From positions 554-64,553 of the forward strand of contig CAYHGT010000003.1 of assembly GCA_964356375.1 (NCBI GenBank): a stretch of 64,000 bases of DNA, written 5' to 3'. Below are positions 15,369 through 28,719 of this stretch, piece by piece. This DNA is from an uncultured Candidatus Saccharibacteria bacterium (GTDB lineage: Bacteria; Patescibacteriota; Minisyncoccia; UBA6257; GWB1-50-10). Position numbers and translations under genes: made by a program. The notes under the pieces are model-generated. The model was given only the letters and a program-made list of their open reading frames with translations, was not told the origin of the DNA and searched no databases. Within the stretch, counting starts at the first letter, position 1, and each line of letters opens with the position of its first letter.

Positions 15369-16868
15369 TTAGTATGCCAGCTCCACATGAATGTGAAGAT
15401 TTTGTGAGCCCATTGCCACTGCGTCGCAAGTTGGCTTAAGCTGAGTGTTGCCAGACGAATCCTTGTATTCGCATCTCGCAATATTGCCCGAGCCCGAACC
15501 ATTTAACAAGTCAATTACGTGATTATACGCACTTACACCACTATAAGTCGTTCCACTTATAGTATATGTGGTGGGCACAATATCAAAAGCTGCGCCTATA
15601 TAATGTTTTGAATTTGGGGCGTGATCGCCGCCAGTAAGAGATGTGACCGTGGCGATAACACCCGCATCACTCAATTGATCTATTTTGTAAAGAAGTGCGA
15701 GCGATGGAAAAACAGGAGGGTTTCTATCTCTTCTACACGCGATGCCGTTCGTACTACACCCACTACTGCACACATAAGGCGTTTCTCCGCGTTTCAACGA
15801 TTGTAGGACACCAGCCGCCGATGACTCGGACGGACTACAAGAGGCACCAGTACCAAATGTTATACCAAATGTTTGGAGCTGCCCCGCCAGCTCCTTTATA
15901 TTATCAGGAACAGTCCCAGGGGCGCCGTCTGGATTAATAATCCCACTACCGCCTAAATAGCCGGGTTCTTGTTTTGATCCGGGGCTTATGAGCGTACAGG
16001 GCTCAACATCCTTCGCAAGACCAACGTATGCAAACTTCCCAGCATCAGTTCCTGGTCCTCGGTATGCATATACAAGACAGCGCGCGGTTTCCACGCTTTG
16101 CCCAATCTTTTTGTAGGGATACACCCACACTATAGAGCCCATTGTGATATCCGGAAGAAACCCTAATGGTGTGTACGCAGCAACCCAACTGAGGTCATAA
16201 TATTCATCAACATCGCGGAATGTCATACCTCCACTACTAACATTAACACGAAGTCTACGATATCTGCATGTATTGTTAGCGGCTGGCGTAACACCAGTTA
16301 TTCTCGTAAAAGACGTACCCGGTATTGTTTTTGCTGGCCTACATTCCTCTGGGGGTTCTTGTAAAGCGGCTGGCGTAGAAGTATTTGTGGGAACAGTGCT
16401 CGTAGAGAGCATTTCTCCAAGCGAGACGATGCGCGGGTTTACTGTGCTAAGTATAAGGTAGGAACCAAGGAGAAGCACAATGCCAATAATTGCAGAGGTT
16501 ATCTTTTCTCTTCCCTCGCTTTTCTGGGTAATACTTTCTGTAAATAGAGATATTTGAATGGAGCCCCAGACAATCATGCCGACCGCGACAATACCTGAAA
16601 TGCCAACCGCAAATTGATAGAGGCGGATAAGATAGTCCTGAATTGTAGAGTTAGCCGTAAGAGGCGCGGCACACGTATCAAGTCCCAAAACTCCCGGTGA
16701 GGGAATACAAGGTGGCGCAAATTCAAGCCTTAATGGAACGGGGTCGGCCGCGAGTGTCGCCAACGGAAACAAAACCACAAAAGAGAGGAGTGCACAAAAA
16801 ACAATTTTTTTAATAGTCATAGATAGGAGGTTCATTTGATTGATGTTGTATGACATATATATAACCAT
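15369..16868 (-). CDS. Fusion protein: signal peptide + VirB2/TrbC-like pilin domain (two hydrophobic helices) + Cys-rich linker + C-terminal LAS/M15-type zinc D,D- or L,D-peptidase (peptidoglycan hydrolase) domain
   Basis: N-terminal region IQDYLIRLYQFAVGISGIVAVGMIVWGSIQISLF...EGREKITSAIIGIVLLLGSYLI parallels the three VirB2-like paralogs at 41.7-43.1 kb. C-terminus carries SKHYIGAAFD (SxHxxGxAxD, H-x6-D) and HIHVE (HxH), the metal ligands of VanY/VanX/M15 LAS peptidases. The probable true start is MTIKK at 16820. Confidence 0.5.
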   Translation of the reverse strand: MVIYMSYNINQMNLLSMTIKKIVFCALLSFVVLFPLATLAADPVPLRLEFAPPCIPSPGVLGLDTCAAPLTANSTIQDYLIRLYQFAVGISGIVAVGMIVWGSIQISLFTESITQKSEGREKITSAIIGIVLLLGSYLILSTVNPRIVSLGEMLSTSTVPTNTSTPAALQEPPEECRPAKTIPGTSFTRITGVTPAANNTCRYRRLRVNVSSGGMTFRDVDEYYDLSWVAAYTPLGFLPDITMGSIVWVYPYKKIGQSVETARCLVYAYRGPGTDAGKFAYVGLAKDVEPCTLISPGSKQEPGYLGGSGIINPDGAPGTVPDNIKELAGQLQTFGITFGTGASCSPSESSAAGVLQSLKRGETPYVCSSGCSTNGIACRRDRNPPVFPSLALLYKIDQLSDAGVIATVTSLTGGDHAPNSKHYIGAAFDIVPTTYTISGTTYSGVSAYNHVIDLLNGSGSGNIARCEYKDSSGNTQLKPTCDAVAMGSQNLHIHVELAY

Positions 16869-17985
16869 CGTATCTATTCACAAAATAAATAGAGTTGTTT
16901 ACCGACACCACATTATCCGCATCAAGCGAGGGAATTGGACCAGATTCTCCTACTACAACAGCAGAATCAGTTCCTGATTGTAAAACTATTTTGTAAAGGT
17001 CATCGCTTGTGTATAGTTTATTCATAAAATAATCATCAGGTATAGCATTTGTTCTTACAAACACACCCCTATCTTTTGGAACAAAGCAGTACACCACATC
17101 AGCCCCACCATCGCATTTTGTAGGAAGCGTAATTAGGACAAGTGGAACAAGCTCGCTGAATGTTCTGTCTAATATTGAAAACTTGTTTGGTGAAGAAAAG
17201 CGGAACAAGACATCTTTATTACTACCCCACCGCACAAATGAACCAAACGCGGGACTTATGACGAGCGTCACTATCCCGGTTTTTGTATCAATTTGCCACA
17301 CGCGCGAACTAGCGTATGAAGACGGTTTTTCGGAAATCAGTATTTCGGTTGCGGATTTTGCGTAAAACGAAATACCCCTCATAGAAAAATTGGAAACAAT
17401 AGTTTTAAACACATAAGGTTGTTTTGATATGTCTATAAACGAAAGCGAAGTTACTCCATTTTTTTGTACACTTCCAACTAATTGTGTTTCGGTACTCGCC
17501 CACGCCACACTTATAATTTCTTTAGGAAGTGGGCGCCACACCTTATCAATGGTGTCAAAAAGTGCCCACTGTGGAGATGAGGGATTGCCGTACGAGATAA
17601 GCGCTCTTTCACCCGAGGGAGATGGTTCAACACGTATTAATCCGGCTATGGTTTGTTTTGACGCGGGCACATCCCCGCTATCCTTTGCTTCTATTACTTC
17701 GCCATCGGCCGAGATGTAGAATACCGCTTTGGTTGTTTTGGAAACCCAAAACCCGAGCACGGGCTTATTTGAAAGCTTCCTAAACGTATAAGAATCTTCG
17801 GTTGAAGTGCTTGCAATTGCTCCTATCCTCGCATCTTGTGGTAATGGAACATTGATTGTCGCGTTTGGTTGTTCCTCTTGCGCAACAGGAGCAGGAACGA
17901 AAAATTTTGACCAAAGAAAATAAACAAAAAATACAGCAAGAAGTACAGAAACGGATATGATAATAATTTTATAAATCGGTTTCAT
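16810..17985 (-). CDS. Hypothetical membrane-anchored extracytoplasmic protein (T4SS-like cluster)
   Basis: Single N-terminal TM (IIIISVSVLLAVFFVYFLW) followed by a roughly 360-aa beta-rich domain; overlaps neighbouring genes (operon-like packing). Confidence 0.45.
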   Translation of the reverse strand: MKPIYKIIIISVSVLLAVFFVYFLWSKFFVPAPVAQEEQPNATINVPLPQDARIGAIASTSTEDSYTFRKLSNKPVLGFWVSKTTKAVFYISADGEVIEAKDSGDVPASKQTIAGLIRVEPSPSGERALISYGNPSSPQWALFDTIDKVWRPLPKEIISVAWASTETQLVGSVQKNGVTSLSFIDISKQPYVFKTIVSNFSMRGISFYAKSATEILISEKPSSYASSRVWQIDTKTGIVTLVISPAFGSFVRWGSNKDVLFRFSSPNKFSILDRTFSELVPLVLITLPTKCDGGADVVYCFVPKDRGVFVRTNAIPDDYFMNKLYTSDDLYKIVLQSGTDSAVVVGESGPIPSLDADNVVSVNNSIYFVNRYDGYIYVIQHQSNEPPIYDY

Positions 17986-17989
17986 ATAG

Positions 17990-18694
17990 TTATCGTATGA
18001 ATATATTGGTATCGGTCTTTATAATATTGGTCATATCATCCCTGCTTTGCACATAAGAAGAAACCGCCACGTTTTTCTGCGCCTCTGAAAAAGGGCTACT
18101 AATTTTGAGAGAAATAGAATTTTCGGCTCCCATGTTTTTCTTTATACTTCCCACCTGCCAATAGAAAATAAAGCGATTAAGTGATGCAACATTAAAGAAA
18201 TAAGGAACCGCACGCATGGTAACGTCGGAATTTGCGTTAATTATTGAATGAGGATATGGAATTTCTATCGCGACTACGGGCTGTGAGATTGGTATTAAAA
18301 TAGATTGTTCTGCGATTATGTTGCCAAGCGTGATTTCCGCGCGGACAAAAATACCATCTACGTCATTGGTATCAGGTTTCAGCGATGTTTGCTTTAATCC
18401 GATTCCAGAATCTATTTGATTTCCCGAGTTATACCACGCGATATTCGCTTGCGAAAGATCTGCAGATTTGCCATTTATGAGCATTTCAGTAGAAACGGTT
18501 ATCGGTGTGCCAATCGTTGGTAGTGCCCTTCCCCTATAATTAGAAGGATAAAAATTTTCAGCACTCCACGTGAGAATTATCTGTGGCGGAATTTGCGGAG
18601 CTGGCGCTGTTTTTGCCGCATGTGCGAAAAAAAAGGGCACAAAAAAACCTAGTATAGAAAACGATAGTATGGTTGTTTTGAAAAAACTTCTCAT
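17990..18694 (-). CDS. Hypothetical secreted protein (T4SS-like cluster)
   Basis: Signal peptide MRSFFKTTILSFSILGFFVPFFFAHAA; no recognisable motifs. Confidence 0.45.
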   Translation of the reverse strand: MRSFFKTTILSFSILGFFVPFFFAHAAKTAPAPQIPPQIILTWSAENFYPSNYRGRALPTIGTPITVSTEMLINGKSADLSQANIAWYNSGNQIDSGIGLKQTSLKPDTNDVDGIFVRAEITLGNIIAEQSILIPISQPVVAIEIPYPHSIINANSDVTMRAVPYFFNVASLNRFIFYWQVGSIKKNMGAENSISLKISSPFSEAQKNVAVSSYVQSRDDMTNIIKTDTNIFIR

Positions 18695-18699: not shown

Positions 18700-19215
18700 T
18701 TATTTTTTGATAGGAACCTTGTTTGCTACTTTTTCTACCGCCTGCACCACCGCAAACTTTTCTGGATGATTTTCCATATATACCGTCACAAGGAATGTGA
18801 ATATCAGCGTTGGAATAAATGGGATTAATTGTACAAGAAAAGGAACAAGAAAACGTTTTGCTAAGCTTGATGTCACCTTACACCCCTTAATTGTAAACCA
18901 AAATGTGAAAATGAACCACGAGGTGAATTGTACAATAGTACCCAACAAACTGAAGGAGAAGAAATCTCCAATCGCGGCTAGTATATCAAGGATGATACAA
19001 ATCAAAGAGCCTAAAATTATCTCAATGGTTGAGAATTTTGGCCCCGTAGAAGATCCCAAATGCTTCCCCGCTTTTTCAAAAGCGCGCCCCTTTTCGTTAT
19101 TTTGTACTCGTATTGAAGCGGAGTGTCCTACGGTACTCACACCCTCCCCGACCGTCATCGTTCTTCTGCTTACAACACGTCTTGCTCCAGGCATAATTGG
19201 CGCATTTGTTGCCAT
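18700..19215 (-). CDS. Hypothetical polytopic membrane protein (T4SS-like cluster)
   Basis: Three to four predicted TM helices; directly downstream of the VirB4 gene. Confidence 0.45.
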   Translation of the reverse strand: MATNAPIMPGARRVVSRRTMTVGEGVSTVGHSASIRVQNNEKGRAFEKAGKHLGSSTGPKFSTIEIILGSLICIILDILAAIGDFFSFSLLGTIVQFTSWFIFTFWFTIKGCKVTSSLAKRFLVPFLVQLIPFIPTLIFTFLVTVYMENHPEKFAVVQAVEKVANKVPIKK

Positions 19216-19218: not shown

Positions 19219-20970
19219 TTATTTTTTTAGTCCCTTAATTTCCAAGATCTGCTCGGGGTTTGTGGTGATAATCTGGTCCTCGGTGTAGGAAGCAACAATC
19301 TTAATCGCAACGTGCTTTGCGCCCGCAAAGAAAAGCGCCTCACCAATGTTTGCCTCAAGAAGGAATCCTTTCTCGCCCTCGGTTAAGCTGAACGCGCCCG
19401 CAACAACATCAATAGCCGCTGGCGACTGCTTCATAAGAATTTGCGTTGCCGAGTTAGTGATAATTGGTTTGCCATATTCTGATTTCAAGAAATCTTCCAC
19501 GTCTTGCGTGATAGTTGTAATGCCGAGGTAATATTTGCGGGCGCGCTTCACAAGCCCAAAAAGGAATGACGCGCTGTCCTTAAACTTCATCATAATCCAC
19601 GCCTCATCAACGACGAGCACGCGTTGGCGAAGCTCTGCGCGAATAAGATTCCACACGAAATTCAATACGATATACATCGCAATCGGGCGAAGTTCTTCGT
19701 CTAAATCACGAATTGAAAAAACAATGAGGCGGTTTTTAAAATCAACATTCGTGGGTGCGTTCGTAAAGCCCGCGTATGTGCCGTGTACAAATTTTTCAAG
19801 ACGTTGCGCGAGCTGAAGCCCTCCCTTTGTGTTTTGTAAAATAACCTGAAGATCCTCAAGAAGTGGAGGCTCCATTTCTTTTGTCTGGCCGAAATTGTCT
19901 GCGGTAATATCGCGCGACGCGTATGTATCAGAAAGCGCCTTATCAAGGAGAGCGTCTTCTTCGGGCGATATTACACCAAGCATCAGTTTTATAAGACCCG
20001 AGAGGTTCAAGATATGGGACTTAAATACATCCGCAGGTTCATCCCCTTCTGGAATAATAGGAATATCAAACGGATTGATATGGCTTTGCGATGTGAGCGA
20101 AATTTTGAAATAACTTCCGCCAATAGCATTGGAAAGATTTTGGTACTCATTTTCTGGATCTATTACAATCACATTTGTGCCAGTCATAAGCGAGCGCAAA
20201 ATGAGAAGTTTTGCGGTGTATGATTTACCAGCGCCAGCTTTTGCAAATACCACCTGGTTTGCATTTTCAAGCGAGAATCGGTCAAAAATAACTAAGCTAT
20301 TGTTGTGCATGTTTACGCCATACATCACACCCTTGTCGGATGTAAGGTCCGGAGAGACGAACGGAAAAAGCGAAGAGGCTGGCCCAGAATTAAGCGGTGT
20401 GTGTGTTTCAAGCTTATCTGTGCAGAGCGGAAGGACCGAATCAAATCCCTCCATCTGCTTGAAAAGCGCGGGCTTTATATAGACCAACTTACTCTGAAGC
20501 ATTGATTCTAATTGGGTTTCAAGTTTTGCGAGCGCATCCAAGCTTTGTCCATAAAGTGTGATATATACCCCAACTTTGAAAAGCTTTTCTCTCGCTTGCA
20601 TTAATGAATCGCGCAAGCTCTCAATGTCTTGGTAGGCGGTCTCAAGCAGTGGATCGCGCACCATACCCTTTGTTGCTTTTTCGTCCATTTCCGACTGGAC
20701 CTGCGCCACCTTTTTTTGGAGGTTGCGTAAAGCCCCCGCAGTTTCCATGGGATGTATGAAAATAGAGATATCCATCATCTCGGAAAGATTGATGATGGGC
20801 GAGAACCAGCCGGAAGAAACGAAGCGCGGGTATGTGAAAATGAAAACAGTTTTTACGAAATAATCACCGAGTTTCAGATAGTTCGGACTCACTTCAAGTC
20901 CCGAGGGCGCAACAATGTTTGGAAGGTCTCCAGGCGACGGCTTATATGTTTGTGGAATTTGTATCTTCAT
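19219..20970 (-). CDS. virB4: VirB4/TrbE/CagE-family type IV secretion ATPase, C-terminal two-thirds (ATPase domain)
   Basis: Walker A VVFAKAGAGKSYTAKL, the VirB4 signature DPENEY (DPKGEY-like), Walker B VLVVDEAW, and the upstream YPRFVSSGWFSPIINL VirB4 core. Its ATG is supplied by the terminal motif of a mini-element (cttctaacgggATG). Confidence 0.85.
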   Translation of the reverse strand: MKIQIPQTYKPSPGDLPNIVAPSGLEVSPNYLKLGDYFVKTVFIFTYPRFVSSGWFSPIINLSEMMDISIFIHPMETAGALRNLQKKVAQVQSEMDEKATKGMVRDPLLETAYQDIESLRDSLMQAREKLFKVGVYITLYGQSLDALAKLETQLESMLQSKLVYIKPALFKQMEGFDSVLPLCTDKLETHTPLNSGPASSLFPFVSPDLTSDKGVMYGVNMHNNSLVIFDRFSLENANQVVFAKAGAGKSYTAKLLILRSLMTGTNVIVIDPENEYQNLSNAIGGSYFKISLTSQSHINPFDIPIIPEGDEPADVFKSHILNLSGLIKLMLGVISPEEDALLDKALSDTYASRDITADNFGQTKEMEPPLLEDLQVILQNTKGGLQLAQRLEKFVHGTYAGFTNAPTNVDFKNRLIVFSIRDLDEELRPIAMYIVLNFVWNLIRAELRQRVLVVDEAWIMMKFKDSASFLFGLVKRARKYYLGITTITQDVEDFLKSEYGKPIITNSATQILMKQSPAAIDVVAGAFSLTEGEKGFLLEANIGEALFFAGAKHVAIKIVASYTEDQIITTNPEQILEIKGLKK

Positions 20971-21103
20971 CCCGTTAGAAGCGATTAACGCTTATTGTTT
21001 GTTTGTGCGACCAATCAACTGCTGTTTCCAATTTTGAAATTTTTGCCACGCGCACGACCACCGCAGGTGGTCGGCTTCTAACGGGATTCATCCCGTTAAT
21101 TAG
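20968..21103. mobile_element. Miniature inverted-repeat element (CATCCCGTTAGAAG ... CTTCTAACGGGAT, plus an adjacent truncated second terminus) inserted between the two VirB4 halves; contains a 38-aa read-through ORF (minus strand, 20975-21091)
   Basis: 14-bp terminal inverted repeats. Outward reading of each end gives TAA-CGGG-ATG. The interior is an uninterrupted ATG-to-TAA frame of 117 nt (MNPVRSRPPAVVVRVAKISKLETAVDWSHKQTISVNRF). Confidence 0.45.
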
Positions 21104-21139
21104 TGTGTCCACATTTTTTGTTATAGTTTGGTTCATTCT

Positions 21140-21778
21140 TTATAATTTTTTGGTAAGCTCCATACCCTTTTTCTCGGTGAGTTGTGGATTGTACATATTG
21201 TAGAATAGTTCCACGATTTCATCGGTATCTAATTGGGTCACATGGAGACCAACCTGCTCTAAGCCGTCAGTTACCTCGGAAACGCGATGTTCAAGTTGTT
21301 CAAGCGCGGCTTGTTCCGATTGGTTTGCCTCAACTTTTGTTTGTTTTTTAAACATATCAAGAAGATTGAATGACGATTTTTGGATAGACGATCCCTCGTA
21401 GGGCACAATTACAAAAAATGTCTTATTAATGATAGCGTTTTGGTCAACAAACGAGCGGATAAACTCCGCGTATTCGGCAATCTGAATCTTCAAAAGCGCA
21501 TTTTCTTCCTGTTCTTCACGCTGTTTCATTTTTGCAAGATATGCATCCACATTCACTTTTCGCGAGTGAATGAAAAGCTGGATTGAAAAATCAATCGTAT
21601 TCAAAAAATTCTGGAAACTATTAAGTATGGTCACCTGCTCGGCCTCCGATTTAAGATCAAAATTAACGCCACCCACAATGAGTATTTTACGAATACCGCC
21701 ACTCTTCAAATATGCGACACCGTCGCGCACCTCTTTTATATCAACGAATTGTTGTGTGGGAATGCTTACTTCTGCCAT
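21140..21778 (-). CDS. virB4: VirB4-family ATPase, N-terminal domain (separate ORF)
   Basis: FVDIKEVRDGVAYLKSGGIRKILIVGGVNFDLKSEAEQ resembles the N-terminal segment of Gram-positive-type VirB4 (TcpF/Orf16/PrgJ-like). 212 + 583 aa is about full VirB4 length; it lies directly upstream of the ATPase ORF on the same strand. Confidence 0.5.
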   Translation of the reverse strand: MAEVSIPTQQFVDIKEVRDGVAYLKSGGIRKILIVGGVNFDLKSEAEQVTILNSFQNFLNTIDFSIQLFIHSRKVNVDAYLAKMKQREEQEENALLKIQIAEYAEFIRSFVDQNAIINKTFFVIVPYEGSSIQKSSFNLLDMFKKQTKVEANQSEQAALEQLEHRVSEVTDGLEQVGLHVTQLDTDEIVELFYNMYNPQLTEKKGMELTKKL

Positions 21779-21857
21779 ATGTCATTAGTATACCGCATTT
21801 TTCTACCTACGGTAAATCTTCCATGTCCGCCGATAGGCAGGCGCAGGGGAGACAACC

Positions 21858-22343
21858 TTAATAATCAACTCTCTTCGCTACCTTATGCTCCCCCGTTAAA
21901 TATGTCACAGATTGATATCGAGCGCCGCTCGCACTCTTGTGTTTGAGGATTTCTCCCGTGGTGATGCTCTGCGCAAGTGATTTAATTTTGTCCTGGATAC
22001 TTATATTGTTGCGCAACGCCTGGATTTTTTCCAAATCAGAGGTATCAAGCGTGGTCTGCTCCATCGCGCGTTGCCATGTATATCTGCGAGGCTTCCATAT
22101 AAAGGAGACCGCAGAAACCAAAATTGTTGGAAAGTCCTGACCGTTTATTTTCACAAACGCAAGCGCAATCGCGATACTGGCCAAAATAACAGAGATAAAT
22201 AACCACAAGAAAAACGTAAGCACATAAAAACCGGCAATAGAAATACCTCCCGCAACCGCGAGATAAAAAAATTGCATCAGCGTAAACGGGCCGACTATTT
22301 TCGCCTTCTCCTCAATAAATTGTGGGACTTGGAATTCTGCCAT
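21858..22343 (-). CDS. VirB3/PrgI-like small two-TM membrane protein
   Basis: 161 aa with two TM helices (FFYLAVAGGISIAGFYVLTFFLWLFISVILASIAIALAFV), immediately upstream of virB4 in the conserved virB3-virB4 order. Confidence 0.35.
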   Translation of the reverse strand: MAEFQVPQFIEEKAKIVGPFTLMQFFYLAVAGGISIAGFYVLTFFLWLFISVILASIAIALAFVKINGQDFPTILVSAVSFIWKPRRYTWQRAMEQTTLDTSDLEKIQALRNNISIQDKIKSLAQSITTGEILKHKSASGARYQSVTYLTGEHKVAKRVDY

Positions 22344-22357: not shown

Positions 22358-23590
22358 CTACTTTAAATGAACCACATTTCCTTCTAGTGCCGGACCGTTT
22401 TCTTTTGGCGCGTATTCAGCCCCTTTTGTCTGGGTATTAGGAAGTTTAGCGGGTACAGCGCTTATTGTGATGGGAACGGGCTGACTCGTTGTGGGTTTTA
22501 GGTTGCCACCCTCCGGAAGATGTTCAGCGGGGACATAGATTTTAGGTTGTTTGTCTGCAACCGAAATCTTCTTTTCTTCCCTTTTTTTGTTGAATATGGA
22601 TTTTAGTGACCATCTCCTTCCCTCTTCTTTTACAGATTCATTTAGCGCTGACGTATCAACGACCGTAGGAGTGGAGGCCGTCTCTGGTGCTTTTGATTGC
22701 AATGCATCAATTGAGCCCGCGATACTCGGTGTGACAACAGGACTTATTTTTTCCGTCTCGTTGTCGTATGTTGTAGGTCGTTTGTCGTTGGTTGAGATAT
22801 TTTGCAACGCTTCCAAATGAATGAGACCCTCGGGAGTTTGCGAAAGCGGAGAAGACGATGAGCGGATTTCGCTATAATGCACAACTTTTTCCTCGTCTTT
22901 CTTCTTTTCAAATGGCCAACTGAACGCATGCGGGGTTTCAATTTTTACTTTCACAGCCGGCTTCGCCTCCGTTGATTCGGGAGAAGATGCAAACATATTG
23001 AACGGAATTGGCGACCTCCTCTTTTCTGTGCGCTCCGCAGGCTTCTCAAAGAATGAACCGCTCTTTTGGAGCACCATCGGACCACCTTCTTCATGGATAG
23101 GCAATGAGACAGGTTCTGTGTCCTCGGTTCCTATCGCGCTTACTTGTATTTTTTCGCCAATTAGCCCCACTGATTCTACCTTTGTTTCCGTCGCCACCTC
23201 TTCATTGTTCGGCTGTGTGGTTGTTTTTTCACTTTCTTCAGTTGCTTCCGTTTCGTCACCGTACGGATTATACGCCTCTTCAAGCTCCTCTTTTACCGAA
23301 TCAAAAATACGCGCATTAATTTCATTCGCAAGCGCGCGTGAATGTTCGTGGTTTAGAAATAGTCGTTCGCCTATCTCATGCGTAAGTTCGCTTTTTGCCA
23401 AGAAGCCCATAAGTACAAACGCAATGAGTGCTCCAAGTTCCCACTGTTTTTCCTCGTCAAGATAGTGTTCCCTACCGATGTTTTCCAACATCTTTTTTCC
23501 TTGTTGTGAATCAACCGCATCACGAAGTTCTTCGTGGAGCGCGGTATAACGATTAGTGAATGCTGTTTTTGTGGGGAATGTGAATGCCAT
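22358..23590 (-). CDS. Hypothetical acidic, low-complexity (E/T/P/K-rich) protein
   Basis: 410-aa ORF with a structured N-terminal part of about 90 aa, then a long disordered region; no motif recognised. Confidence 0.45.
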   Translation of the reverse strand: MAFTFPTKTAFTNRYTALHEELRDAVDSQQGKKMLENIGREHYLDEEKQWELGALIAFVLMGFLAKSELTHEIGERLFLNHEHSRALANEINARIFDSVKEELEEAYNPYGDETEATEESEKTTTQPNNEEVATETKVESVGLIGEKIQVSAIGTEDTEPVSLPIHEEGGPMVLQKSGSFFEKPAERTEKRRSPIPFNMFASSPESTEAKPAVKVKIETPHAFSWPFEKKKDEEKVVHYSEIRSSSSPLSQTPEGLIHLEALQNISTNDKRPTTYDNETEKISPVVTPSIAGSIDALQSKAPETASTPTVVDTSALNESVKEEGRRWSLKSIFNKKREEKKISVADKQPKIYVPAEHLPEGGNLKPTTSQPVPITISAVPAKLPNTQTKGAEYAPKENGPALEGNVVHLK

Positions 23591-23594: not shown

Positions 23595-25838
23595 TTATGT
23601 AATTATTTTTGGTCCTTGCGCATTCCGTTCAGCGTCTTCTTTCGCCCTGCGCGCGCGTTCTTCTTCTCTTGATTGCGCAGCCGCCTTAGCGCGAATATTC
23701 GCGATCGGGGTGTTTTCGGTGAATCCCTCAGTAATAATCGGACTTGTAGTTTTTTCTTTTGGAGTATTTGGTTGTTTTTTATTCTCTTTTTCTTTTTTCT
23801 CAGCTTCCGCGATTTCTTTTTTCGCGTCATTCCAAAGATCCGTGATTTTTTCTAGCGGGTTTTCAGAGAACCACCCGTCGTTCTTAGCATTCCTTGCCGC
23901 AATAGTAGCTTCCACAAGGTCTTTTGCGCGCTCCTCCCACTGCGCTTTTGTTTTTGGTTTCTGCCCCTCTATTTTCTGCCACTTCGCGGTCTGCTCCTTT
24001 GCGGCAGTAATTTTTGAATCCAAATCATGTTTCATTCCGGGCGCGGGTATATATGCTTTGTTTTTAATATCCTCGTCTTTCTTTGCGGTCATAGCCACAA
24101 GCTGTTTCTCCCATTCCGTTCTTGCTGGTGATGCTTCTGCCGAAGTCTTTCTCATCTTAGAGAGTTCTTTGTATGTAGCGTCTCGTTGCGCCTCAAAGAA
24201 CGAGGTCTTGAGACCTTTTGCGAGGAGCATTTCGCGTTTCAACTCAAACTCCTCAGCTTGTTTCATAAGACCCTCTTCGGTTTCCGGAAGTTTTGTTTTC
24301 TTTCTCATCTCGTCCTCCAATTTCTCAATATTTTTCTTCATGTCGCTTACATCAACGCCAGCCTTCTCAAGCTCTTCCAGTTTCTTAAGCTTCTTCTCAT
24401 GGTTTTTCTCATCTTCTTCTAACGATGTTGTTTCTTTCGCTTTCTTCGCTTCGCTAATCTTGGTTTCTACACCCTTTTCTCCGCCCGTAAGTACTGCCCA
24501 CGCGAGAGAGCCTAGCGAGTCCGGTTTCGTGGAGGCGCCATCCACCGTCTGGAGTCCTTGACCCGCAACACGTATCATGGCTTGTAGAGGTGCGCGCACT
24601 GGTGTCATTGCAAGCATTGCCGCCTTTCCAAACAGATTTTTTGGTTTGTACTCGCCCACCGTCTTTATACCCGTACCAAAACGAAGCGCTTGTCGCCCAA
24701 TTGCCCCCCCCACCCGAGATTGGGCAATTTTTTGACCAAATGTTTTTGCGCCCTTGCCTGCATAATTCTTCGCAATCGCGCCAAGTCCTTGAAGTCTATC
24801 AATACCCGCAGCTGCCGCGACGATGCCCATTTTTTGTGCAGCAATAAGTCCGCCAATCAAGATTCCGCTAAGAACAGTCATTTGTGAACCGATAACCATG
24901 ATGTTTTGCAATGCGCCCATTTTGAAAAACTCATTGGTCGTATTCACTTTACCAAGCGCCTCCGCGCTTCCAAGCGCAAGATAGAGAAAAAACATAAGTA
25001 TAGGGGCAAAGAATACCTGTTCCATGAACTTGCTCCACCATTTAGAGAACTTATCCGCCTGTCCTGGAATTACCCAAAAGAGCCACGTAATTGGCGCAAG
25101 GATGAGAAGAATGGAGAGCCACACAAACCGTACGAGAAGCATGATAGCAAAAATAAACATAATGATGGTAGCGATAAGATTAAATCCAGTGATAAAAAAG
25201 ATTTCCGCGATGGACGCCATAACCGCAGTTGAAAGACTCGTGCCCACACCGGCTTCATCCGCAGGATTTGGTGGTAAGGGGTCATTTCCACTATTTAACA
25301 TAAATTGTTGAGAATTAAATGCGCCCGCCAACTTGTTTACCACACCAAACATCCCCCCTTCGTTTATTTTGCTCATAAAGAAATTGGTGATTACATTGGA
25401 GAAATCAATAAATACCCCCCCAATAGCGAGGCTGAAGTTCACGAGGATTGCGGCTGCGATGAGTTTTGGAAGCAATTTTTTATACCCGTATTCTTCAGAG
25501 CCGACGATGGTGGCAAAAGCGATGATAATCATTGCGAGCACGAATCCAAGGTTCGCAAGGTCGCGCGTAATTGTCCAACCAACACCCACAAGCTGGTTTA
25601 CACCCGTGTTGGCAACTGTGGTATTGAGCGTCATCATAAATTCAACGAGCGCGCCCGCGAGCATAAACGCAAGTGAGATAAAGAAGTTATAGAGATAGAT
25701 AATAAATTTTGCGGAGTAGGATACTATATCAGCAAGCATCTGATCCGCGAATGCCGCGTGCGCAAATTGAGGCACAATAAGTCCCACGAGGATAAGCGCG
25801 CCGAGACCCGAAAGCATTTTTTTATTGCGTAGCTTCAT
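23595..25838 (-). CDS. Large polytopic membrane protein, VirB6/TrbL-like, with a lysine/glutamate-rich C-terminal tail
   Basis: Signal-like N-terminus, at least eight hydrophobic helices over about 400 aa, then a roughly 300-aa charged coiled-coil-like tail. The position within the T4SS-like gene block fits the enlarged VirB6 homologs of Gram-positive systems. Confidence 0.45.
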   Translation of the reverse strand: MKLRNKKMLSGLGALILVGLIVPQFAHAAFADQMLADIVSYSAKFIIYLYNFFISLAFMLAGALVEFMMTLNTTVANTGVNQLVGVGWTITRDLANLGFVLAMIIIAFATIVGSEEYGYKKLLPKLIAAAILVNFSLAIGGVFIDFSNVITNFFMSKINEGGMFGVVNKLAGAFNSQQFMLNSGNDPLPPNPADEAGVGTSLSTAVMASIAEIFFITGFNLIATIIMFIFAIMLLVRFVWLSILLILAPITWLFWVIPGQADKFSKWWSKFMEQVFFAPILMFFLYLALGSAEALGKVNTTNEFFKMGALQNIMVIGSQMTVLSGILIGGLIAAQKMGIVAAAAGIDRLQGLGAIAKNYAGKGAKTFGQKIAQSRVGGAIGRQALRFGTGIKTVGEYKPKNLFGKAAMLAMTPVRAPLQAMIRVAGQGLQTVDGASTKPDSLGSLAWAVLTGGEKGVETKISEAKKAKETTSLEEDEKNHEKKLKKLEELEKAGVDVSDMKKNIEKLEDEMRKKTKLPETEEGLMKQAEEFELKREMLLAKGLKTSFFEAQRDATYKELSKMRKTSAEASPARTEWEKQLVAMTAKKDEDIKNKAYIPAPGMKHDLDSKITAAKEQTAKWQKIEGQKPKTKAQWEERAKDLVEATIAARNAKNDGWFSENPLEKITDLWNDAKKEIAEAEKKEKENKKQPNTPKEKTTSPIITEGFTENTPIANIRAKAAAQSREEERARRAKEDAERNAQGPKIIT

Positions 25839-25846
25839 TATGCGAT

Positions 25847-27958
25847 TTAATACTGCACGCGTAGTCTACCCGTTGTCGTCACATTCACTGTTTTTGATAC
25901 AACCCCACCAGCACCATAACAAGAGAGCGTGTAGGTAGATAATGAACCGGGGTCGCTAAAAAGGCGAACATTCTCAGAGCCCGAAGTTGCTCTCAGTCCA
26001 TCCCAATCGCCAGATGCGGTACATGAACTTGCGCCCGTGGTAGACCAAGTAATTTTCACAAGTCCTCCAACATGTACACGTGCGGGAGTCCGAGTGAGCG
26101 TAAGTGTTGGAATTGTAGATGTGCTGGTCCCACCACCAACTGGCACCGCCGGACACATATATGGGGCGGGTGCCACGGTGCTGGTGCACGCATTAAGTTG
26201 TGAGGTTACGTCAGTCGATGCGAATGCGGTTTTATCAGCGGTGAGCTTATTTATCATATCGTTTATTGCGGTTGCATATTGTTGAACCTCCGTATAAAGA
26301 GCGAATACATCTTCTGGGGTAGTTTCGGGATCGTTTAGTGTCGCAATCATGTCAATCAGTCGTTGTTTGAGGGTATTAAGCAGTGAATTTGCGCCAGTAA
26401 TATCCGAGGAAAGTGATATGATAGCGGAGAACAAATTCGCGGTTGTAGGACACTGCGCCTTTTGTGCGGTCTTTTGCGCCTCGCACGCCGAAAGAAGCGA
26501 CAGGTCTGACTGAGACACAGACGGCAAGGCCGTAACATCGGCAACCAAAGGAGCAAGCACATCATTTAACGCGGCGAGTGCGCTTTCAGCAAGACTAAGC
26601 GCGGTTGAGGTAGAAACAAGTGCTGGATTCGTTGAAGTGGTGGTCGTGTCTAAAAGTTCCGAGCCATACTCAAGATAAATCATATCGCGTTTGCACTTTT
26701 CAGTTTGTGCGGTGGTTACGTTTGGACCTGTTGGCATGCTTGTGCAATATGGTTCGGGTGCTTTGTTTGTAGAACTATTACTGAATATGTTTTTGGATGC
26801 GTCACTAAGACCCTTTACACCTTCTTTTGCGAGGCGATTAAAGGCCGCATCAAATATTGCGGAAAGATAAGGAGTAAGGTCGTCGGCGCTTACGAGCGCG
26901 TCCTTGTCATTGCTACCAAGCGAATTGCCGAGTATTGTGCCAAGTGTTTCTCCTGGTGTTGTAATTTTCTGGCCTTCTGCCTTACATACAATTTTTGTGA
27001 TTATGTCTTCAAGTGGTAATGCTGGCACTATTTTTCCTCGCGCGACCGATTCGGATGGTGGCTCGCTCGGGTCTATAAGAGAGTTATCATTACCAGCGAG
27101 GAATGTTGCAATAACCGTTTCGGGGCCAAGGTCATTATCAGCATCTCCAAGTGAGCTCCTTCCGATGACGGACCACGTGATACACATTTTTGTAGACAAA
27201 AATCCTTTAGTGCCAGCCGTCTCAGTTTTTAACGCATCAGTTTTTGCACCCTTCCTACGCGAAAGATCATCAATTGCCAAAAGTTGAAGTCCATATTTAT
27301 TATTTTGGAGGCTATTCACTTCTTGATATGCAAGCCAACTCCCATTTTCAAAATTATCAGCAAATGCGCGTACATTACCTATCACTTTTGAGAGTGTGCA
27401 ACTTGCGGCCTTGGAAAGTTTAGGCGGTGTTTGCAGGTTTAGTTGTAATTGAATGCCGAGTTTTGCGTCACACAGTTGTCCCGCACCGATTTCTTGGAGC
27501 GTATCTCCGAGCGCGGCGTCTGCGCTATCCCTAAGCACCGAGTTGAAATTAGTAACGAATTTAGGGTTCCCTCCCGTTCCACTTATCCAAGCGACTACAT
27601 CATCGGTGAGCCTATCAAGTAGGTGCTTTTTAAACTTATTAAATGCAATTTTAATGAGCATCTTCCAGAGAGCTTTTAAACATTCTTCTACGTTATCCCA
27701 AAACTTTTGCCAAGAAGTCCTGTGATCAAGCGCCGCAACCGCTGGATCTGGCGCTAAGGAGCTCAGTTTGCCAGAAACTAGTGCGGCAAGCCATTTAGCC
27801 GCCTTTGTTATTCCACATTTTTTGAATACCTCCTGCGCCCCCCCATCCGCGCTTGCAGCGGCCGCGTTCGCTCTATCTGGGAGCACAAAATACAACGAAT
27901 TCGCAAGAATTATTATAGAAAGAAGCGAGGCGATAGTTTTTGTTGTAGATGGACGCAT
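25847..27958 (-). CDS. Large secreted protein with C-terminal Ig/PKD-like beta-sandwich domain
   Basis: Signal peptide (IASLLSIIILANSLYFV...ANA); Cys-containing; C-terminal roughly 100 aa rich in T/S/G beta-strand pattern. Confidence 0.45.
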   Translation of the reverse strand: MRPSTTKTIASLLSIIILANSLYFVLPDRANAAAASADGGAQEVFKKCGITKAAKWLAALVSGKLSSLAPDPAVAALDHRTSWQKFWDNVEECLKALWKMLIKIAFNKFKKHLLDRLTDDVVAWISGTGGNPKFVTNFNSVLRDSADAALGDTLQEIGAGQLCDAKLGIQLQLNLQTPPKLSKAASCTLSKVIGNVRAFADNFENGSWLAYQEVNSLQNNKYGLQLLAIDDLSRRKGAKTDALKTETAGTKGFLSTKMCITWSVIGRSSLGDADNDLGPETVIATFLAGNDNSLIDPSEPPSESVARGKIVPALPLEDIITKIVCKAEGQKITTPGETLGTILGNSLGSNDKDALVSADDLTPYLSAIFDAAFNRLAKEGVKGLSDASKNIFSNSSTNKAPEPYCTSMPTGPNVTTAQTEKCKRDMIYLEYGSELLDTTTTSTNPALVSTSTALSLAESALAALNDVLAPLVADVTALPSVSQSDLSLLSACEAQKTAQKAQCPTTANLFSAIISLSSDITGANSLLNTLKQRLIDMIATLNDPETTPEDVFALYTEVQQYATAINDMINKLTADKTAFASTDVTSQLNACTSTVAPAPYMCPAVPVGGGTSTSTIPTLTLTRTPARVHVGGLVKITWSTTGASSCTASGDWDGLRATSGSENVRLFSDPGSLSTYTLSCYGAGGVVSKTVNVTTTGRLRVQY

Positions 27959-27960
27959 GT

Positions 27961-28719
27961 TTAAAATATGATTCCGCGTGAACGGTTTATAAAATCAAGC
28001 TGAATGCCTTTTTCTTGGCTAAGCAACGCGGAAAGACTTTGAGATGCGGTTGCCGCATACAAAGGGTCATTCTCTTTATTCAAAAATGCTTGCGCGTAGG
28101 TAAGTTTCGCTTGCCAGAAATTAAGCAAGGTCAAATGAAAATCCGCCAAACTTTTCGGAACGGGCATTGCAAGAAGTATGGAAATATACGAAGAAATAGA
28201 ATTCGTTATATTAACCAATCTTTGCGAGTCCCCACCCGTAACGAAGTTTCCGAGCACTTCGTAAAAATCGGAAATTGCTGTCATGTTTTTTTCATCCGCA
28301 GAGGTAAGCGTCCTAAGATATGTTTTTACGGCACTATTGGAGGAGACGTTTAAAATTTTTATATCTTTTTCTGTAAAGTATGAAACCGGAATTGGTTTAC
28401 TGGTTGCCTTTTTTACGATGTCATTCAAAACCACATCGCTTGGAACCGCGACCTGCTTATCCGTTCCCATTCCTTGTGGATTAAGTTTTAATATTTCAAG
28501 CCCATATGCCCTTGCCGCGTCATCGGTTACATTGCGAGATGTATTGTTGTCCGCAACTGAATTTGTTAAATCTGCAAACCGAGCATCATTGCCTCCGCTC
28601 ACGCCGGAAATAGATATATCAATACTCCCTGTGTTCGTTTTATTTCCGAACACAAGCCAAGATGCACCCACAACTCCTACGAGAAGGATGCCTACCGCGA
28701 TAATCGTTCTTTTCCACAT
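27961..28719 (-). CDS. Bitopic membrane protein (N-terminal TM + periplasmic domain), possibly VirB8-like
   Basis: Single N-terminal TM (IIAVGILLVGVVGASWLVF) and about 220 aa of extracytoplasmic domain. The VirB8 analogy rests on topology and size only. Confidence 0.3.
   Translation of the reverse strand: MWKRTIIAVGILLVGVVGASWLVFGNKTNTGSIDISISGVSGGNDARFADLTNSVADNNTSRNVTDDAARAYGLEILKLNPQGMGTDKQVAVPSDVVLNDIVKKATSKPIPVSYFTEKDIKILNVSSNSAVKTYLRTLTSADEKNMTAISDFYEVLGNFVTGGDSQRLVNITNSISSYISILLAMPVPKSLADFHLTLLNFWQAKLTYAQAFLNKENDPLYAATASQSLSALLSQEKGIQLDFINRSRGIIF

What the first reader, a model, noticed from the sequence alone, without database searches (positions are those of the whole stretch)
15369..28719. 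Roughly 13-kb type-IV-secretion-like gene block embedded among housekeeping genes next to the replication origin
Gene content on one strand: pilin-peptidase fusion, membrane-anchored and secreted unknowns, VirB4 ATPase (two ORFs), VirB3-like two-TM protein, disordered acidic protein, giant VirB6-like polytopic protein with a K/E-rich tail, large secreted Ig-like protein, bitopic VirB8-like candidate. Genes overlap by a few nt (operon-like). There is no relaxase, no VirD4 coupling protein, no VirB11 and no integrase nearby. This argues against a conjugative element and for a chromosomal T4SS-like apparatus of the kind reported in ultra-small epibiotic bacteria, where it has been linked to host interaction or DNA uptake.
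Basis: partly seen in the sequence, partly recalled or inferred. Interest (0 to 1): 0.65.

Follow-up and report, generated by a model that had tools for sequence, protein, structure and literature searches.

The report
Chromosomal type IV secretion locus, Patescibacteria type
The block is a real but already described kind of system: the vertically inherited type IV secretion apparatus that ultra-small Patescibacteria (here a Paceibacteria/Jorgensenbacteria-like genome) carry next to dnaA, not a conjugative element.

Summary
The genes are there as described. On the minus strand, 15369-28719 encodes a VirB2-like pilin domain protein, a VirB4 ATPase with intact Walker motifs, a separate TrsD-like VirB4 N-domain gene, PrgI/VirB3, a VirB6/TrbL-like polytopic protein and six lineage-specific envelope proteins. 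The window holds no relaxase, VirD4 or VirB11. In about 80 other Paceibacteria species the same gene order sits between ksgA and jag-yidC-rnpA-dnaA-dnaN, so the locus is inherited vertically.

Corrections:
- The two VirB4 ORFs are the normal TrsD + VirB4 arrangement. They are pushed apart here by a recent 117-nt inverted-repeat insertion at the virB4 start codon.
- The 252-aa "VirB8-like" protein is predicted all-helical, not NTF2-like.
- The pilin's C-terminal "peptidase" is a remote LAS/Hedgehog-type zinc domain. The motif is conserved, the HMM support is weak and no fold match was found.

The more interesting by-product is that insertion's family. It is widespread in metagenomes, and its last base is the A of the downstream gene's ATG in 88% of evaluable copies.

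The parts
27961..28719 (-). 252-aa bitopic protein (N-terminal TM, then a helical ectodomain); first gene of the T4SS block; lineage-specific accessory protein, not VirB8-like
   Evidence: TM at 4-27. The AF2 model is all-helical, with pLDDT 72 overall and 80-95 for residues 60-250. No Foldseek match in the PDB has E below 1. No Pfam, NCBIfam or PDB sequence hit. Syntenic orthologues were found in only 8 near relatives, and only 8 homologues exist among 5.8 billion proteins.
25847..27958 (-). 703-aa secreted or anchored, Cys-rich (14 Cys), Ser/Thr-rich protein; conserved T4SS-associated envelope protein of unknown fold
   Evidence: N-terminal hydrophobic segment at 7-28 and composition. Syntenic orthologues in 29 loci at 24-40% identity. 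No family or PDB hit. The Ig-like C-terminus was not tested.
23595..25838 (-). 747-aa VirB6/TrbL-like polytopic membrane protein with a roughly 300-aa K/E-rich C-terminal tail
   Evidence: About 6-7 hydrophobic segments in residues 1-345; the tail has K+R 21% and D+E 20%. NCBIfam CD3337/EF1877 mobilome membrane protein, E 7e-4. Of 43 syntenic orthologues, 5 hit TrbL PF04610 (best E 1.9e-7) and 2 hit TrbL_4. The orthologue in L202 carries a faint TrbL_3 hit.
22358..23590 (-). 410-aa acidic, low-complexity protein with a conserved roughly 100-aa N-terminal part; function unknown
   Evidence: D+E 16.3%, net charge -18. Orthologues in 24 loci align mainly over about 100 residues. No family hit.
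21858..22343 (-). 161-aa PrgI family (VirB3-like) membrane protein
   Evidence: Pfam PrgI PF12666, E 3.3e-8, above the cut-off. Hydrophobic hairpin at 16-69. Present in 76 of 80 loci directly upstream of the TrsD-like gene.
21140..21778 (-). 212-aa TrsD-like protein (free-standing VirB4 N-terminal / TraC-like domain)
   Evidence: NCBIfam TrsD/TraD, E 3.9e-9, covering 29-200 of 201 profile positions; also the N-terminus of CD1110. Full-length 780-800-aa VirB4 relatives align across both ORFs. The gene is separate in 73 of 79 related loci. The L202 orthologue carries PF26593 TraC-like.
20970..21134 (-). Insertion at the virB4 start codon: an intact 117-nt inverted-repeat element (20970-21086) plus a roughly 45-nt relic of an earlier copy (21087-21134), each followed by a TGAA duplication. 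The element's last A rebuilds the ATG of virB4.
   Evidence: Sequence and fold: 13-bp terminal stem, MFE -49 kcal/mol, z -4.4. Absent from the closest relative L202 (VirB4 89% identical), where trsD overlaps virB4, and absent from L001, L002 and L004-L009. An unrelated copy of the same family sits at the same site in L003. No Rfam match.
19219..20970 (-). 583-aa VirB4-family ATPase (the motor of the system)
   Evidence: conju_CD1110 E 3.9e-103 (346 bits against a cut-off of 325), VirB4_plasma E 2e-86, TraG P-loop, AAA_10 and DUF87. Walker A at 243-250 and Walker B at 451-456. It is 56-80% identical across 79 species, the most conserved gene of the neighbourhood.
18700..19215 (-). 171-aa basic membrane protein (2-3 TM segments); unknown accessory component
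   Evidence: Hydropathy and net charge +10. Orthologues directly downstream of virB4 in 12 loci. No family hit.
17990..18694 (-). 234-aa secreted protein; unknown accessory component
   Evidence: N-terminal signal-like segment at 4-27. Syntenic orthologues in 30 loci. No family hit.
16810..17985 (-). 391-aa bitopic protein with a large ectodomain (possibly a beta-propeller; weak)
   Evidence: TM at 1-34. Orthologues in 34 loci. The only hints are single weak beta-propeller hits among the mixed set of accessory-protein orthologues (eIF2A, THOC3; E about 1e-3).
15369..16868 (-). 499-aa protein: signal/anchor, VirB2-like T4SS pilin hairpin (about 74-148), a Cys-rich middle part, and a C-terminal LAS/Hedgehog-N-type zinc-hydrolase-like domain (about 320-499). 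The true start is probably a later ATG (M5 or M17).
   Evidence: T4SS_pilin PF18895, E 3.5e-8. The model shows a helical hairpin, and its best fold hint is the Aeropyrum conjugative pilin 8dfu (probability 0.72, not significant). Motifs SKHYIGAAFD at 420 and HIH at 492; H, S, H, Y, G, D and H-x-H are at least 90% conserved in 88 homologues. A profile search against PDB sequences returns only Hedgehog N-domains, aligned on the zinc motif, E 0.2-2. Of 88 proteins with this domain, 72 also carry T4SS_pilin, 7 TrbC/VirB2, 7 HH_signal (best E 3.7e-4), 1 Peptidase_M15_3 and 2 SLT. No Foldseek match for the domain in the PDB or BFVD.
15320..15349 (-). Terminator-like hairpin 20 nt after the last gene; probable 3' end of the transcription unit
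   Evidence: 12-bp stem, the strongest hit of the consensus scan; a pattern match only.
28726..30030 (-). ksgA/rsmA (28726-29544) and a small non-conserved secreted ORF (29554-30030), 6 and 9 nt upstream of the block on the same strand; probably co-transcribed and not T4SS parts
   Evidence: RrnaAD E 2e-43. Gaps. ksgA lies upstream of the cluster in 39 of 51 loci with enough sequence. The 158-aa ORF has no orthologue in any locus.
30246..31217 (+). M23 peptidase with two LysM domains, divergent from the operon; a possible VirB1-type cell-wall hydrolase partner
   Evidence: Peptidase_M23 E 2e-24 and LysM E 5e-14. A conserved neighbour in the closest relatives: L001-L004, L007, L010 and L202. 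PMC12102498 reports VirB1-like proteins with M23/LysM domains near virB4 in Paceibacteria. The association here rests on position only.

Best explanation
[quoted passage not shown] The system is related to the conjugation machinery of monoderm bacteria (MPF-FATA).

Shown here:
- A catalytically intact VirB4 ATPase is encoded with its free-standing N-domain homologue (TrsD-like), PrgI/VirB3, a VirB6/TrbL-like channel protein and a VirB2-like pilin domain protein.
- Six lineage-specific membrane or secreted proteins accompany them.
- The genes form one co-oriented, tightly packed unit between ksgA and jag-yidC-rnpA-dnaA.

Inferred:
- VirB4 with TrsD docks on PrgI and VirB6 in the single membrane and powers assembly of a pilin-based tube or fibre through the wall.
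- The pilin-domain protein carries a LAS-type zinc hydrolase domain that would cut peptidoglycan locally, either its own or the host's.
- The secreted and bitopic proteins would form the wall-spanning and contact parts.
- With no relaxase or coupling protein at the locus, the machine does not conjugate. It most likely mediates contact-dependent traffic of macromolecules between the epibiont and its host cell. Direction and substrate are unknown. I put about 0.4 on export of proteins into or onto the host, and about 0.3 on import of host nucleic acids or other material.
For: Identity of the core parts:
- HMM matches for VirB4, TrsD, PrgI and T4SS_pilin.
- Transitive matches to TrbL/VirB6 through orthologues.
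- The best VirB4 models are monoderm types: CD1110 at 346 bits and Mycoplasma ICE VirB4 at 290 bits, against 106 bits for VirB4_CagE.
- Walker A and B motifs are intact.

Vertical inheritance:
- Gene order is conserved across 80 species.
- dnaA lies within 8.5 kb in 49 of 51 loci that extend far enough, and ksgA lies upstream in 39 of 51.
- The gene order is identical in the closest relative, L202.
- GC content equals that of the flanks.
- There are no att-like repeats.
- No relaxase, T4CP, VirB11 or adjacent integrase was found.

Purifying selection:
- Median identity is 58% for VirB4, against 44% for DnaA and 31% for DnaN in the same loci.

Literature:
- The same component set, the lack of a relaxase and the dnaA/dnaN/rnpA/ksgA neighbourhood are described in PMC12102498.
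- The T4SS is essential in Southlakia epibionticum (PMC10633639; PMC12857230).
- Tubular structures were seen at the host interface of a cultivated Minisyncoccota parasite (bioRxiv 10.64898/2026.06.21.733656).
Against: - Function is not shown for any Paceibacteria system; essentiality data exist only for a Saccharibacterium.
- A coupling protein or relaxase could be encoded elsewhere in this genome. Only 64 kb was seen, and the 2025 survey finds VirD4-like genes far from virB4 in many Patescibacteria.
- No VirB8-like protein was found, and the one candidate failed.
- The hydrolase assignment of the pilin's C-terminal domain rests on a conserved motif and sub-threshold HMM hits, with no fold match.
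- A pilin with a 350-aa C-terminal extension may not polymerise like VirB2.
- The 80 loci were chosen by VirB4 similarity, which inflates the apparent conservation of VirB4 relative to its neighbours.
Confidence: 0.87

Rival explanations
1. It is an integrated conjugative or mobilisable element (ICE), or a decayed remnant of one, that happened to land near dnaA.
For: The core genes are homologous to conjugation genes of Gram-positive ICEs and plasmids: CD1110, the Mycoplasma ICE VirB4, TrsD and PrgI.
Against: The position and gene order are the same in about 80 species and in the closest relative. There is no relaxase, T4CP, adjacent integrase, tRNA or att-like repeats. GC content equals the flanks. 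VirB4 is more conserved than DnaA, and all ORFs are intact.
Confidence: 0.03
2. It is a DNA-uptake (competence) machine, analogous to the Helicobacter ComB T4SS or the archaeal Ced system, that imports host or environmental DNA as a source of nucleotides.
For: These organisms lack nucleotide synthesis, and this role has been proposed in the literature (PMC11665869). VirB4 gives weak hits to the archaeal DNA-import ATPases CedB and CedD (E 2e-9 and 2e-7). Competence-linked genes lie in the same window: comM, dprA, a PilB-type ATPase and a type IV pilin.
Against: The CedB/CedD scores are far below their cut-offs (36 bits against 700). In S. epibionticum, comEC is dispensable while the T4SS is essential, so the essential role there is not ComEC-dependent transformation. 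No DNA-binding or translocase partner is present in the block.
Confidence: 0.12
3. The locus is non-functional in this genome, because VirB4 is broken into two ORFs by an insertion.
For: A 169-nt gap containing an inserted repeat element separates the two VirB4-related ORFs. In relatives they abut or overlap.
Against: The two-gene arrangement is the norm (73 of 79 loci) and is known as TrsD + VirB4. The insertion lies between the genes and rebuilds the ATG. Both ORFs are full length with intact motifs. Elements of the same family precede ftsH in this window and dnaA in L029, both essential genes, so the element is compatible with expression.
Confidence: 0.03
4. It only builds an adhesive pilus or surface fibre for attachment to the host, and nothing is translocated.
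For: A VirB2-like pilin gene is present, with large secreted or surface proteins and no coupling protein. VirB4 is the ATPase needed for pilus biogenesis in canonical systems (established knowledge of T4SS).
Against: The window also encodes type IV pilus components that already serve attachment in Saccharibacteria. A VirB6-type channel protein is retained and conserved. The pilin here is fused to an enzyme-like domain rather than to an adhesin.
Confidence: 0.15

Closest known systems
Patescibacteria-clade T4SS as surveyed by Quinonero-Coronel et al. 2025 (PMC12102498), Paceibacteria arrangement
   Same: VirB4 of monoderm type. TrsD-like gene next to virB4. PrgI/VirB3. VirB6. VirB2-like pilin (PF18895). 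No relaxase or T4CP at the locus. Neighbourhood of dnaA, dnaN, rnpA and ksgA. An M23/LysM hydrolase nearby.
   Different: Nothing essential differs. Details not reported there: the pilin domain is fused to a LAS/Hedgehog-type zinc domain in this sub-lineage; six conserved accessory genes have no family assignment; and a small inverted-repeat element is inserted at the virB4 start codon.
T4SS of Southlakia epibionticum ML1 (SEML1_0006-0019; Wang et al. 2023, PMC10633639)
   Same: A chromosomal, origin-proximal cluster resembling Gram-positive conjugative T4SSs, with pilin genes and no recognisable relaxase or coupling protein. It is essential for epibiotic growth.
   Different: It belongs to a different class (Saccharimonadia). 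It has an array of six separate small pilins rather than one pilin-enzyme fusion, and its peptidase and lysozyme genes are separate. Essentiality has not been tested for any Paceibacteria system.
MPF-FATA conjugative T4SSs of Gram-positive plasmids and ICEs (pGO1/pSK41 Trs, pCF10 Prg, C. difficile CTn2 CD1110)
   Same: Homologous VirB4, TrsD, PrgI and VirB6-type proteins; a single-membrane architecture with no VirB7, VirB9 or VirB10.
   Different: Those systems sit on mobile elements with a relaxase, a coupling protein and oriT. They use adhesins rather than VirB2-like pilins, have NTF2-like VirB8 homologues (TraM, PrgL, TcpC), and use VirB1-type transglycosylase/CHAP hydrolases.
Helicobacter pylori ComB DNA-uptake T4SS and the archaeal Ced system
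   Same: T4SS-derived machines that lack a relaxase and work in import rather than conjugation. They set a functional precedent.
   Different: ComB is a diderm VirB2-4/6-10 system. The similarity to Ced is marginal. No evidence here bears on direction of transport.

Membership tests
Patescibacteria-clade (MPF-FATA-derived) chromosomal T4SS | VirB4 ATPase, closest to monoderm-type VirB4, with an intact P-loop | tested here: met
   conju_CD1110 at 346 bits (cut-off 325) and VirB4_plasma at 290 bits, against 106 bits for VirB4_CagE. Walker A and B motifs present. All 120 listed best homologues that carry a source name are from Patescibacteria.
Patescibacteria-clade (MPF-FATA-derived) chromosomal T4SS | TrsD-like gene (VirB4 N-domain homologue) adjacent to virB4 | tested here: met
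   NF041427 TrsD, E 3.9e-9 over the whole profile. It is a separate gene in 73 of 79 related loci.
Patescibacteria-clade (MPF-FATA-derived) chromosomal T4SS | VirB3 (PrgI) and VirB6 (TrbL) membrane components near virB4 | tested here: met
   PrgI E 3.3e-8. VirB6 is supported only transitively: the window protein gives E 7e-4 to CD3337/EF1877, and 5 + 2 of 43 orthologues hit TrbL / TrbL_4.
Patescibacteria-clade (MPF-FATA-derived) chromosomal T4SS | VirB2-like pilin (PF18895 or PF04956) encoded near virB4 | tested here: met
   PF18895 E 3.5e-8, above the cut-off. Pilin-domain orthologues lie at the same position in 50 loci.
Patescibacteria-clade (MPF-FATA-derived) chromosomal T4SS | No relaxase or coupling protein at the locus; chromosomal site near dnaA, dnaN, rnpA and ksgA | tested here: met
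   Pfam and NCBIfam scans of 48 ORFs of the window, including all 21 of 300 aa or longer. Synteny across loci. The rest of the genome was not available.
Patescibacteria-clade (MPF-FATA-derived) chromosomal T4SS | VirB4 falls inside the monophyletic Patescibacteria clade in a phylogeny | not tested
   No tree was built. Only nearest-neighbour evidence is available.
Patescibacteria-clade (MPF-FATA-derived) chromosomal T4SS | Required for epibiotic growth | not testable with these tools
   Known only for S. epibionticum.
Conjugative T4SS / integrative conjugative element | Relaxase (MOB) and type IV coupling protein (VirD4/TcpA) | tested here: not met
   None among the scanned ORFs of the window.
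Conjugative T4SS / integrative conjugative element | Integrase and flanking att repeats; variable insertion site | tested here: not met
   The only recombinase is a Xer-type enzyme 11 kb away. There are no flanking repeats beyond chance. The site is the same in about 80 species.
VirB8 / NTF2-like T4SS component (claimed for the 252-aa protein) | Bitopic protein whose ectodomain has the NTF2-like alpha+beta fold | tested here: not met
   It is bitopic, but the AF2 model is all-helical with pLDDT 80-95 in the ectodomain. No PDB fold match has E below 1. The alignment is shallow (8 sequences), so the model is moderately reliable.
LAS zinc hydrolases (peptidase M15 / Hedgehog-N / lysostaphin-type), claimed for the C-terminus of the 499-aa protein | Zinc ligands H-x6-D plus H-x-H in the right order | tested here: met
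   SKHYIGAAFD at 420 and HIH at 492. These residues are at least 90% conserved in 88 homologues.
LAS zinc hydrolases (peptidase M15 / Hedgehog-N / lysostaphin-type), claimed for the C-terminus of the 499-aa protein | Significant profile or fold similarity to a LAS family member | tested here: inconclusive

The most novel reading that the evidence does not exclude
In this Paceibacteria sub-lineage the 'missing' VirB1 function is built into the pilin. A VirB2-like membrane hairpin carries a Hedgehog/M15-type zinc peptidase that is displayed on, or released from, the T4SS fibre. It opens the host cell wall, making the apparatus a feeding conduit for host macromolecules rather than an exporter. 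The conserved but family-less partners (the 703-, 391-, 234-, 252-, 171- and 410-aa proteins) would then form a wall-spanning structure with no counterpart in known T4SSs.
Probability: 0.15. Interest if true: 0.7.

Novelty: already known. Interest (0 to 1): 0.3.

Why it matters
The T4SS of Patescibacteria is one of the few machines thought to link these host-dependent bacteria to their hosts, and its substrate and direction of transport are unknown. This locus adds no new kind of system. It does give a clean Paceibacteria example of several points:
- strict synteny across about 80 species;
- a VirB4 that is more conserved than DnaA;
- a set of conserved accessory proteins that still have no family;
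- a negative result for a VirB8 candidate;
- a recurrent pilin-LAS-domain fusion (72 of 88 cluster representatives) that may explain why VirB1 homologues are rarely found.

These points are useful to anyone planning structural or genetic work on the system.

Tried and rejected
- The VirB4 spacer as an intron or a gene-60-like translational bypass. This was suggested by the repeated TAACGGGATGAA and the strong fold. I rejected it in favour of a DNA insertion. Relatives lack the spacer, it belongs to a dispersed repeat family with 4-nt flanking duplications, and the downstream ATG is a normal start.
- Rfam: no match for the spacer or for any copy of the element.
- Sequence searches of the PDB with the 499-, 252- and 703-aa proteins: nothing.
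- A VirB6 profile against the PDB: only coiled-coil noise from the K/E-rich tail.
- Foldseek with the 252-aa and 499-aa models against the PDB and BFVD: no significant match.
- Pfam scans of mixed accessory-protein orthologues: only scattered weak hits.
- att-like direct repeats around the block: only short AT-rich chance matches.
- DnaA-box clustering to locate oriC: not found with TTWTNCACA. 'Next to the origin' therefore rests on dnaA/dnaN adjacency alone.
- The sigma-70 promoter scan was no better than shuffled sequence.
- A long autonomous parent of the small element: none in the window.

Full report
**What is in the sequence**

On the minus strand, twelve ORFs run from 28719 down to 15369. 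Most are separated by only 2-14 nt. There is one overlap, a 79-nt gap, and a 169-nt gap between the two VirB4-related ORFs.

Upstream on the same strand, 6 and 9 nt away, lie ksgA/rsmA and a small non-conserved ORF. A strong terminator-like hairpin follows the last gene. To the left of the block are jag, yidC, rnpA, dnaA, dnaN and a class A PBP. Block GC (0.444) equals the rest of the window (0.446).

**Core components**

- The 583-aa ORF is a VirB4-family ATPase. NCBIfam conju_CD1110 gives E 3.9e-103 at 346 bits against a cut-off of 325. The Mycoplasma ICE VirB4 model scores 290 bits and the diderm VirB4_CagE model only 106. Pfam finds TraG P-loop, AAA_10 and DUF87. Walker A (AKAGAGKS, 243) and Walker B (VLVVDE, 451) are intact.
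- The 212-aa ORF upstream matches TrsD/TraD over the whole profile (E 3.9e-9) and the N-terminus of CD1110.
- The 161-aa protein is PrgI (VirB3-like), E 3.3e-8.
- The 499-aa protein carries T4SS_pilin PF18895 at residues 74-135 (E 3.5e-8).
- The 747-aa polytopic protein is itself only marginally similar to the CD3337/EF1877 mobilome membrane family (E 7e-4). Among 43 syntenic orthologues, 5 hit TrbL/VirB6 (best E 1.9e-7) and 2 hit TrbL_4. I therefore accept it as VirB6-like.

**The two VirB4 ORFs**

A search with the conceptually joined protein found two classes of relatives. One class is 780-804 aa and covers both ORFs at 57-60% identity. The other is 582-595 aa and covers only the C-terminal ORF at 75-89% identity. 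In 73 of 79 related loci the ATPase gene is the short form, preceded by a separate N-domain gene that abuts or overlaps it. This is the TrsD + VirB4 arrangement. The 2025 survey reports TrsD as the most abundant T4SS component of Patescibacteria. It is not a broken gene.

What is peculiar to this genome is the 169-nt spacer. It contains an intact 117-nt element (20970-21086) with a 13-bp terminal inverted repeat, plus a 45-nt relic of an earlier copy. Each is followed by TGAA, and the last A of the element rebuilds the ATG of virB4. The closest relative (VirB4 89% identical) has no insertion.

**Absences**

Pfam and NCBIfam scans of 48 ORFs of the window, including all 21 of 300 aa or longer, found no relaxase, no VirD4/TcpA-type coupling protein and no VirB11. 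The one T2SSE ATPase (97-1335) is PilB/GspE-type (E 1e-137, against 4e-11 for VirB11). The one tyrosine recombinase (39869-40765) is XerC/D-type and lies 11 kb away. tRNAs are distant, and there are no att-like repeats. The rest of the genome could not be surveyed.

**Synteny**

A scan of one genome per species found 593 relatives of the ATPase, of which the best 80 loci were fetched. tblastn and blastp of all window proteins against them show one recurring order:

ksgA - (252) - 703 - VirB6 - acidic protein - PrgI - TrsD - VirB4 - (171) - 234 - 391/pilin - jag - yidC - dnaA - dnaN - PBP

The organisms are labelled Jorgensen-, Harrison-, Kaiser-, Vogel-, Taylor- and Nomurabacteria and Paceibacterota. 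dnaA is present within 8.5 kb in 49 of 51 loci long enough to show it. ksgA is upstream in 39 of 51. Median identity is 58% for VirB4, against 44% for DnaA, 31% for DnaN and 35% for KsgA. One caveat applies: the loci were selected by VirB4 similarity.

The DnaA 90% cluster includes Candidatus Jorgensenbacteria, and the window's proteins are deposited as 'Patescibacteria group bacterium'. This pattern excludes an integrated conjugative element and indicates strong purifying selection.

**Tests of the two doubtful assignments**

1. The 252-aa 'VirB8-like' protein. It has only 8 homologues among 5.8 billion proteins. The AlphaFold model (pLDDT 72 overall, 80-95 in the ectodomain) is entirely helical and has no PDB match with E below 1. 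VirB8 proteins have an NTF2-like alpha+beta fold, so the assignment is not supported. This agrees with the literature, which also fails to find VirB8 in most Patescibacteria.
2. The C-terminal 'peptidase' of the pilin protein.
   - The window protein has no HMM hit there.
   - It carries S-x-H-x-x-G-x-A-x-D and H-x-H. These residues are at least 90% conserved in 88 homologues found by an exhaustive search.
   - A profile of the family retrieves only Hedgehog N-terminal domains from the PDB, aligned on their zinc site, with E 0.2-2.
   - Among the 88 homologues, 72 also have T4SS_pilin, 7 TrbC/VirB2, 7 HH_signal (best E 3.7e-4), 1 Peptidase_M15_3 and 2 an SLT transglycosylase domain.
   - I read this as a probable LAS-type zinc hydrolase domain recurrently fused to VirB2-like pilins. 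It is suggestive, not established.

**Comparison with what is known**

Wang et al. 2023 described an essential, origin-proximal T4SS (SEML1_0006-0019) in a Saccharibacterium. It has pilins but no relaxase or coupling protein. Quinonero-Coronel et al. 2025 surveyed 3,035 Patescibacteria genomes and reported:
- VirB4 in 2,417 genomes, forming a clade nested in MPF-FATA;
- TrsD, PrgI, VirB6 and VirB2-like pilins near virB4;
- VirB8 almost undetectable;
- relaxases in only 103 genomes;
- in Paceibacteria, dnaA, dnaN, rnpA, rpmH and ksgA as the commonest neighbours.

A 2025 review lists these systems as a new T4SS type. The function is stated to be unknown, with effector delivery and nucleic-acid import as the proposals. 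The present locus is an ordinary member of this described system.

**Mechanism**

The composition, the conservation and the non-mobile context are shown. Inferred from established T4SS biology:
- VirB4 (with TrsD) is anchored by PrgI/VirB3 to a VirB6 channel.
- It energises extraction and assembly of the pilin-domain protein.
- The secreted and bitopic partners build the wall-crossing and contact part.
- The LAS-like domain and the neighbouring M23/LysM enzyme (30246-31217) would provide wall remodelling.

Without a relaxase or coupling protein the machine does not conjugate. Whether it exports proteins, imports host nucleic acids or only builds a fibre cannot be decided from sequence.

**By-product: the start-codon element**

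The element inserted at virB4 belongs to a family with the form TCCCGTTAGAnnn ... nnnTCTAACGGGA, 68-156 nt long.
- Abundance: eight intact copies lie in this 64-kb window. Copies occur in several related loci.
- Flanking duplication: among 144 copies, 93 have an identical 4-nt flanking duplication, usually TGAA and otherwise TGNN.
- Link to start codons: 130 element ends form A|TG, of which 121 could be evaluated. From exactly that ATG, 107 (88%) open an ORF of at least 80 codons, against 5 of 257 control frames. The genes include dnaA, ftsH, virB4 and prgI.
- Upstream copy of the start: 82 of 107 have ATGNN directly upstream, so the start codon plus two bases is duplicated.
- Polarity: the interior is not conserved but is oriented relative to the gene (24:0 and 18:1 for two structural features).
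- Stem: positions 11-13 covary.
- Translation signals: these genomes show no Shine-Dalgarno enrichment. A -10-like hexamer peaks 12-15 nt before the ATG, which suggests widespread leaderless genes.
- Literature: I found no description of such an element.

This is outside the finding I was given, but it is the most unusual thing in the region.

**Verdict**

Novelty is low because the system is already described, and interest is modest (0.3).

Noticed in passing
window 20970-21086, 33669-33769, 42514-42672, 43108-43265, 44597-44695, 48439-48534, 51518-51616, 59370-59467; also L003 9882-10001, L006 2135-2535, L017 3392-3497 and 7456-7562, L029 2098-2165, 15042-15137 and 16475-16590; L081-L201: A family of 68-156-nt elements bounded by a 13-bp perfect inverted repeat (TCCCGTTAGAnnn ... 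nnnTCTAACGGGA), usually with a 4-nt TGNN flanking duplication. The element's last A is the A of the downstream gene's ATG. Of 121 evaluable element ends, 107 open an ORF of at least 80 codons from that ATG, against 5 of 257 control frames. 82 of 107 have ATGNN just upstream. The interior varies but is oriented relative to the gene (24:0 and 18:1). At least 120 metagenome contigs and one viral contig carry copies. There is no Rfam match and I found no paper. It may be a mobile element specialised for the start of leaderless genes, or an RNA-processing or regulatory cassette.
   Followed up: partly
window and loci L001-L201 (long ORFs): SD-like motifs are no more frequent upstream of long ORFs than at random positions (14% in both). 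A TAnnnT hexamer peaks 12-15 nt before the ATG: 28% of long ORFs and 43% of element-bearing genes, against a baseline of about 10%. This suggests that many genes of these Paceibacteria are transcribed as leaderless mRNAs.
   Followed up: partly
window 14861-14889 (start of jag) and 42486-42522: Solo, slightly degenerate 3' ends of the same element (CTAACGAGATGAA, CTAATGGGATGAA) lie inside annotated N-termini. The true starts of jag and of ORF 42128-42532 may be the ATG within these relics.
   Followed up: no
window 19219-20970 versus 12039-13421, across L001-L080: VirB4 is more conserved than DnaA, DnaN, YidC or KsgA in the same loci (median identity 58%, against 44, 31, 34 and 35%). This is unusual for a secretion ATPase, though the loci were selected by VirB4 similarity.
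   Followed up: partly
window 97-1335, 31749-33290, 54990-56312, 61883-62764: Type IV pilus and competence genes are scattered in the same window: a PilB/GspE-type ATPase, ComM, a prepilin with a Laminin_G_3 (ConA-like) domain, and DprA.
   Followed up: no
window 53504-53576: A tRNA-Ile with anticodon TAT (UAU), in addition to tRNA-Ile GAT at 63916. This implies AUA decoding without a lysidine-modified CAU tRNA.
   Followed up: no
window 13572-13597 and 21798-21823: A 26-nt direct repeat (TTTTTCTACCTACGGGAGATTTCCCA, 85% identical). One copy lies in the dnaA-rpmH intergenic region and the other just upstream of the TrsD-like gene. A related CTACGG/CTACC-rich sequence occurs inside the element at 42514-42672. 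Its meaning is unknown.
   Followed up: no
window 39869-40765 and 53884-54552: The Xer-type tyrosine recombinase also passes the NCBIfam cut-off for 'XerA/integron integrase' (230 bits against 220). A 222-aa HTH-only transposase-like ORF sits next to two tRNA genes. Neither was linked to the small element.
   Followed up: no
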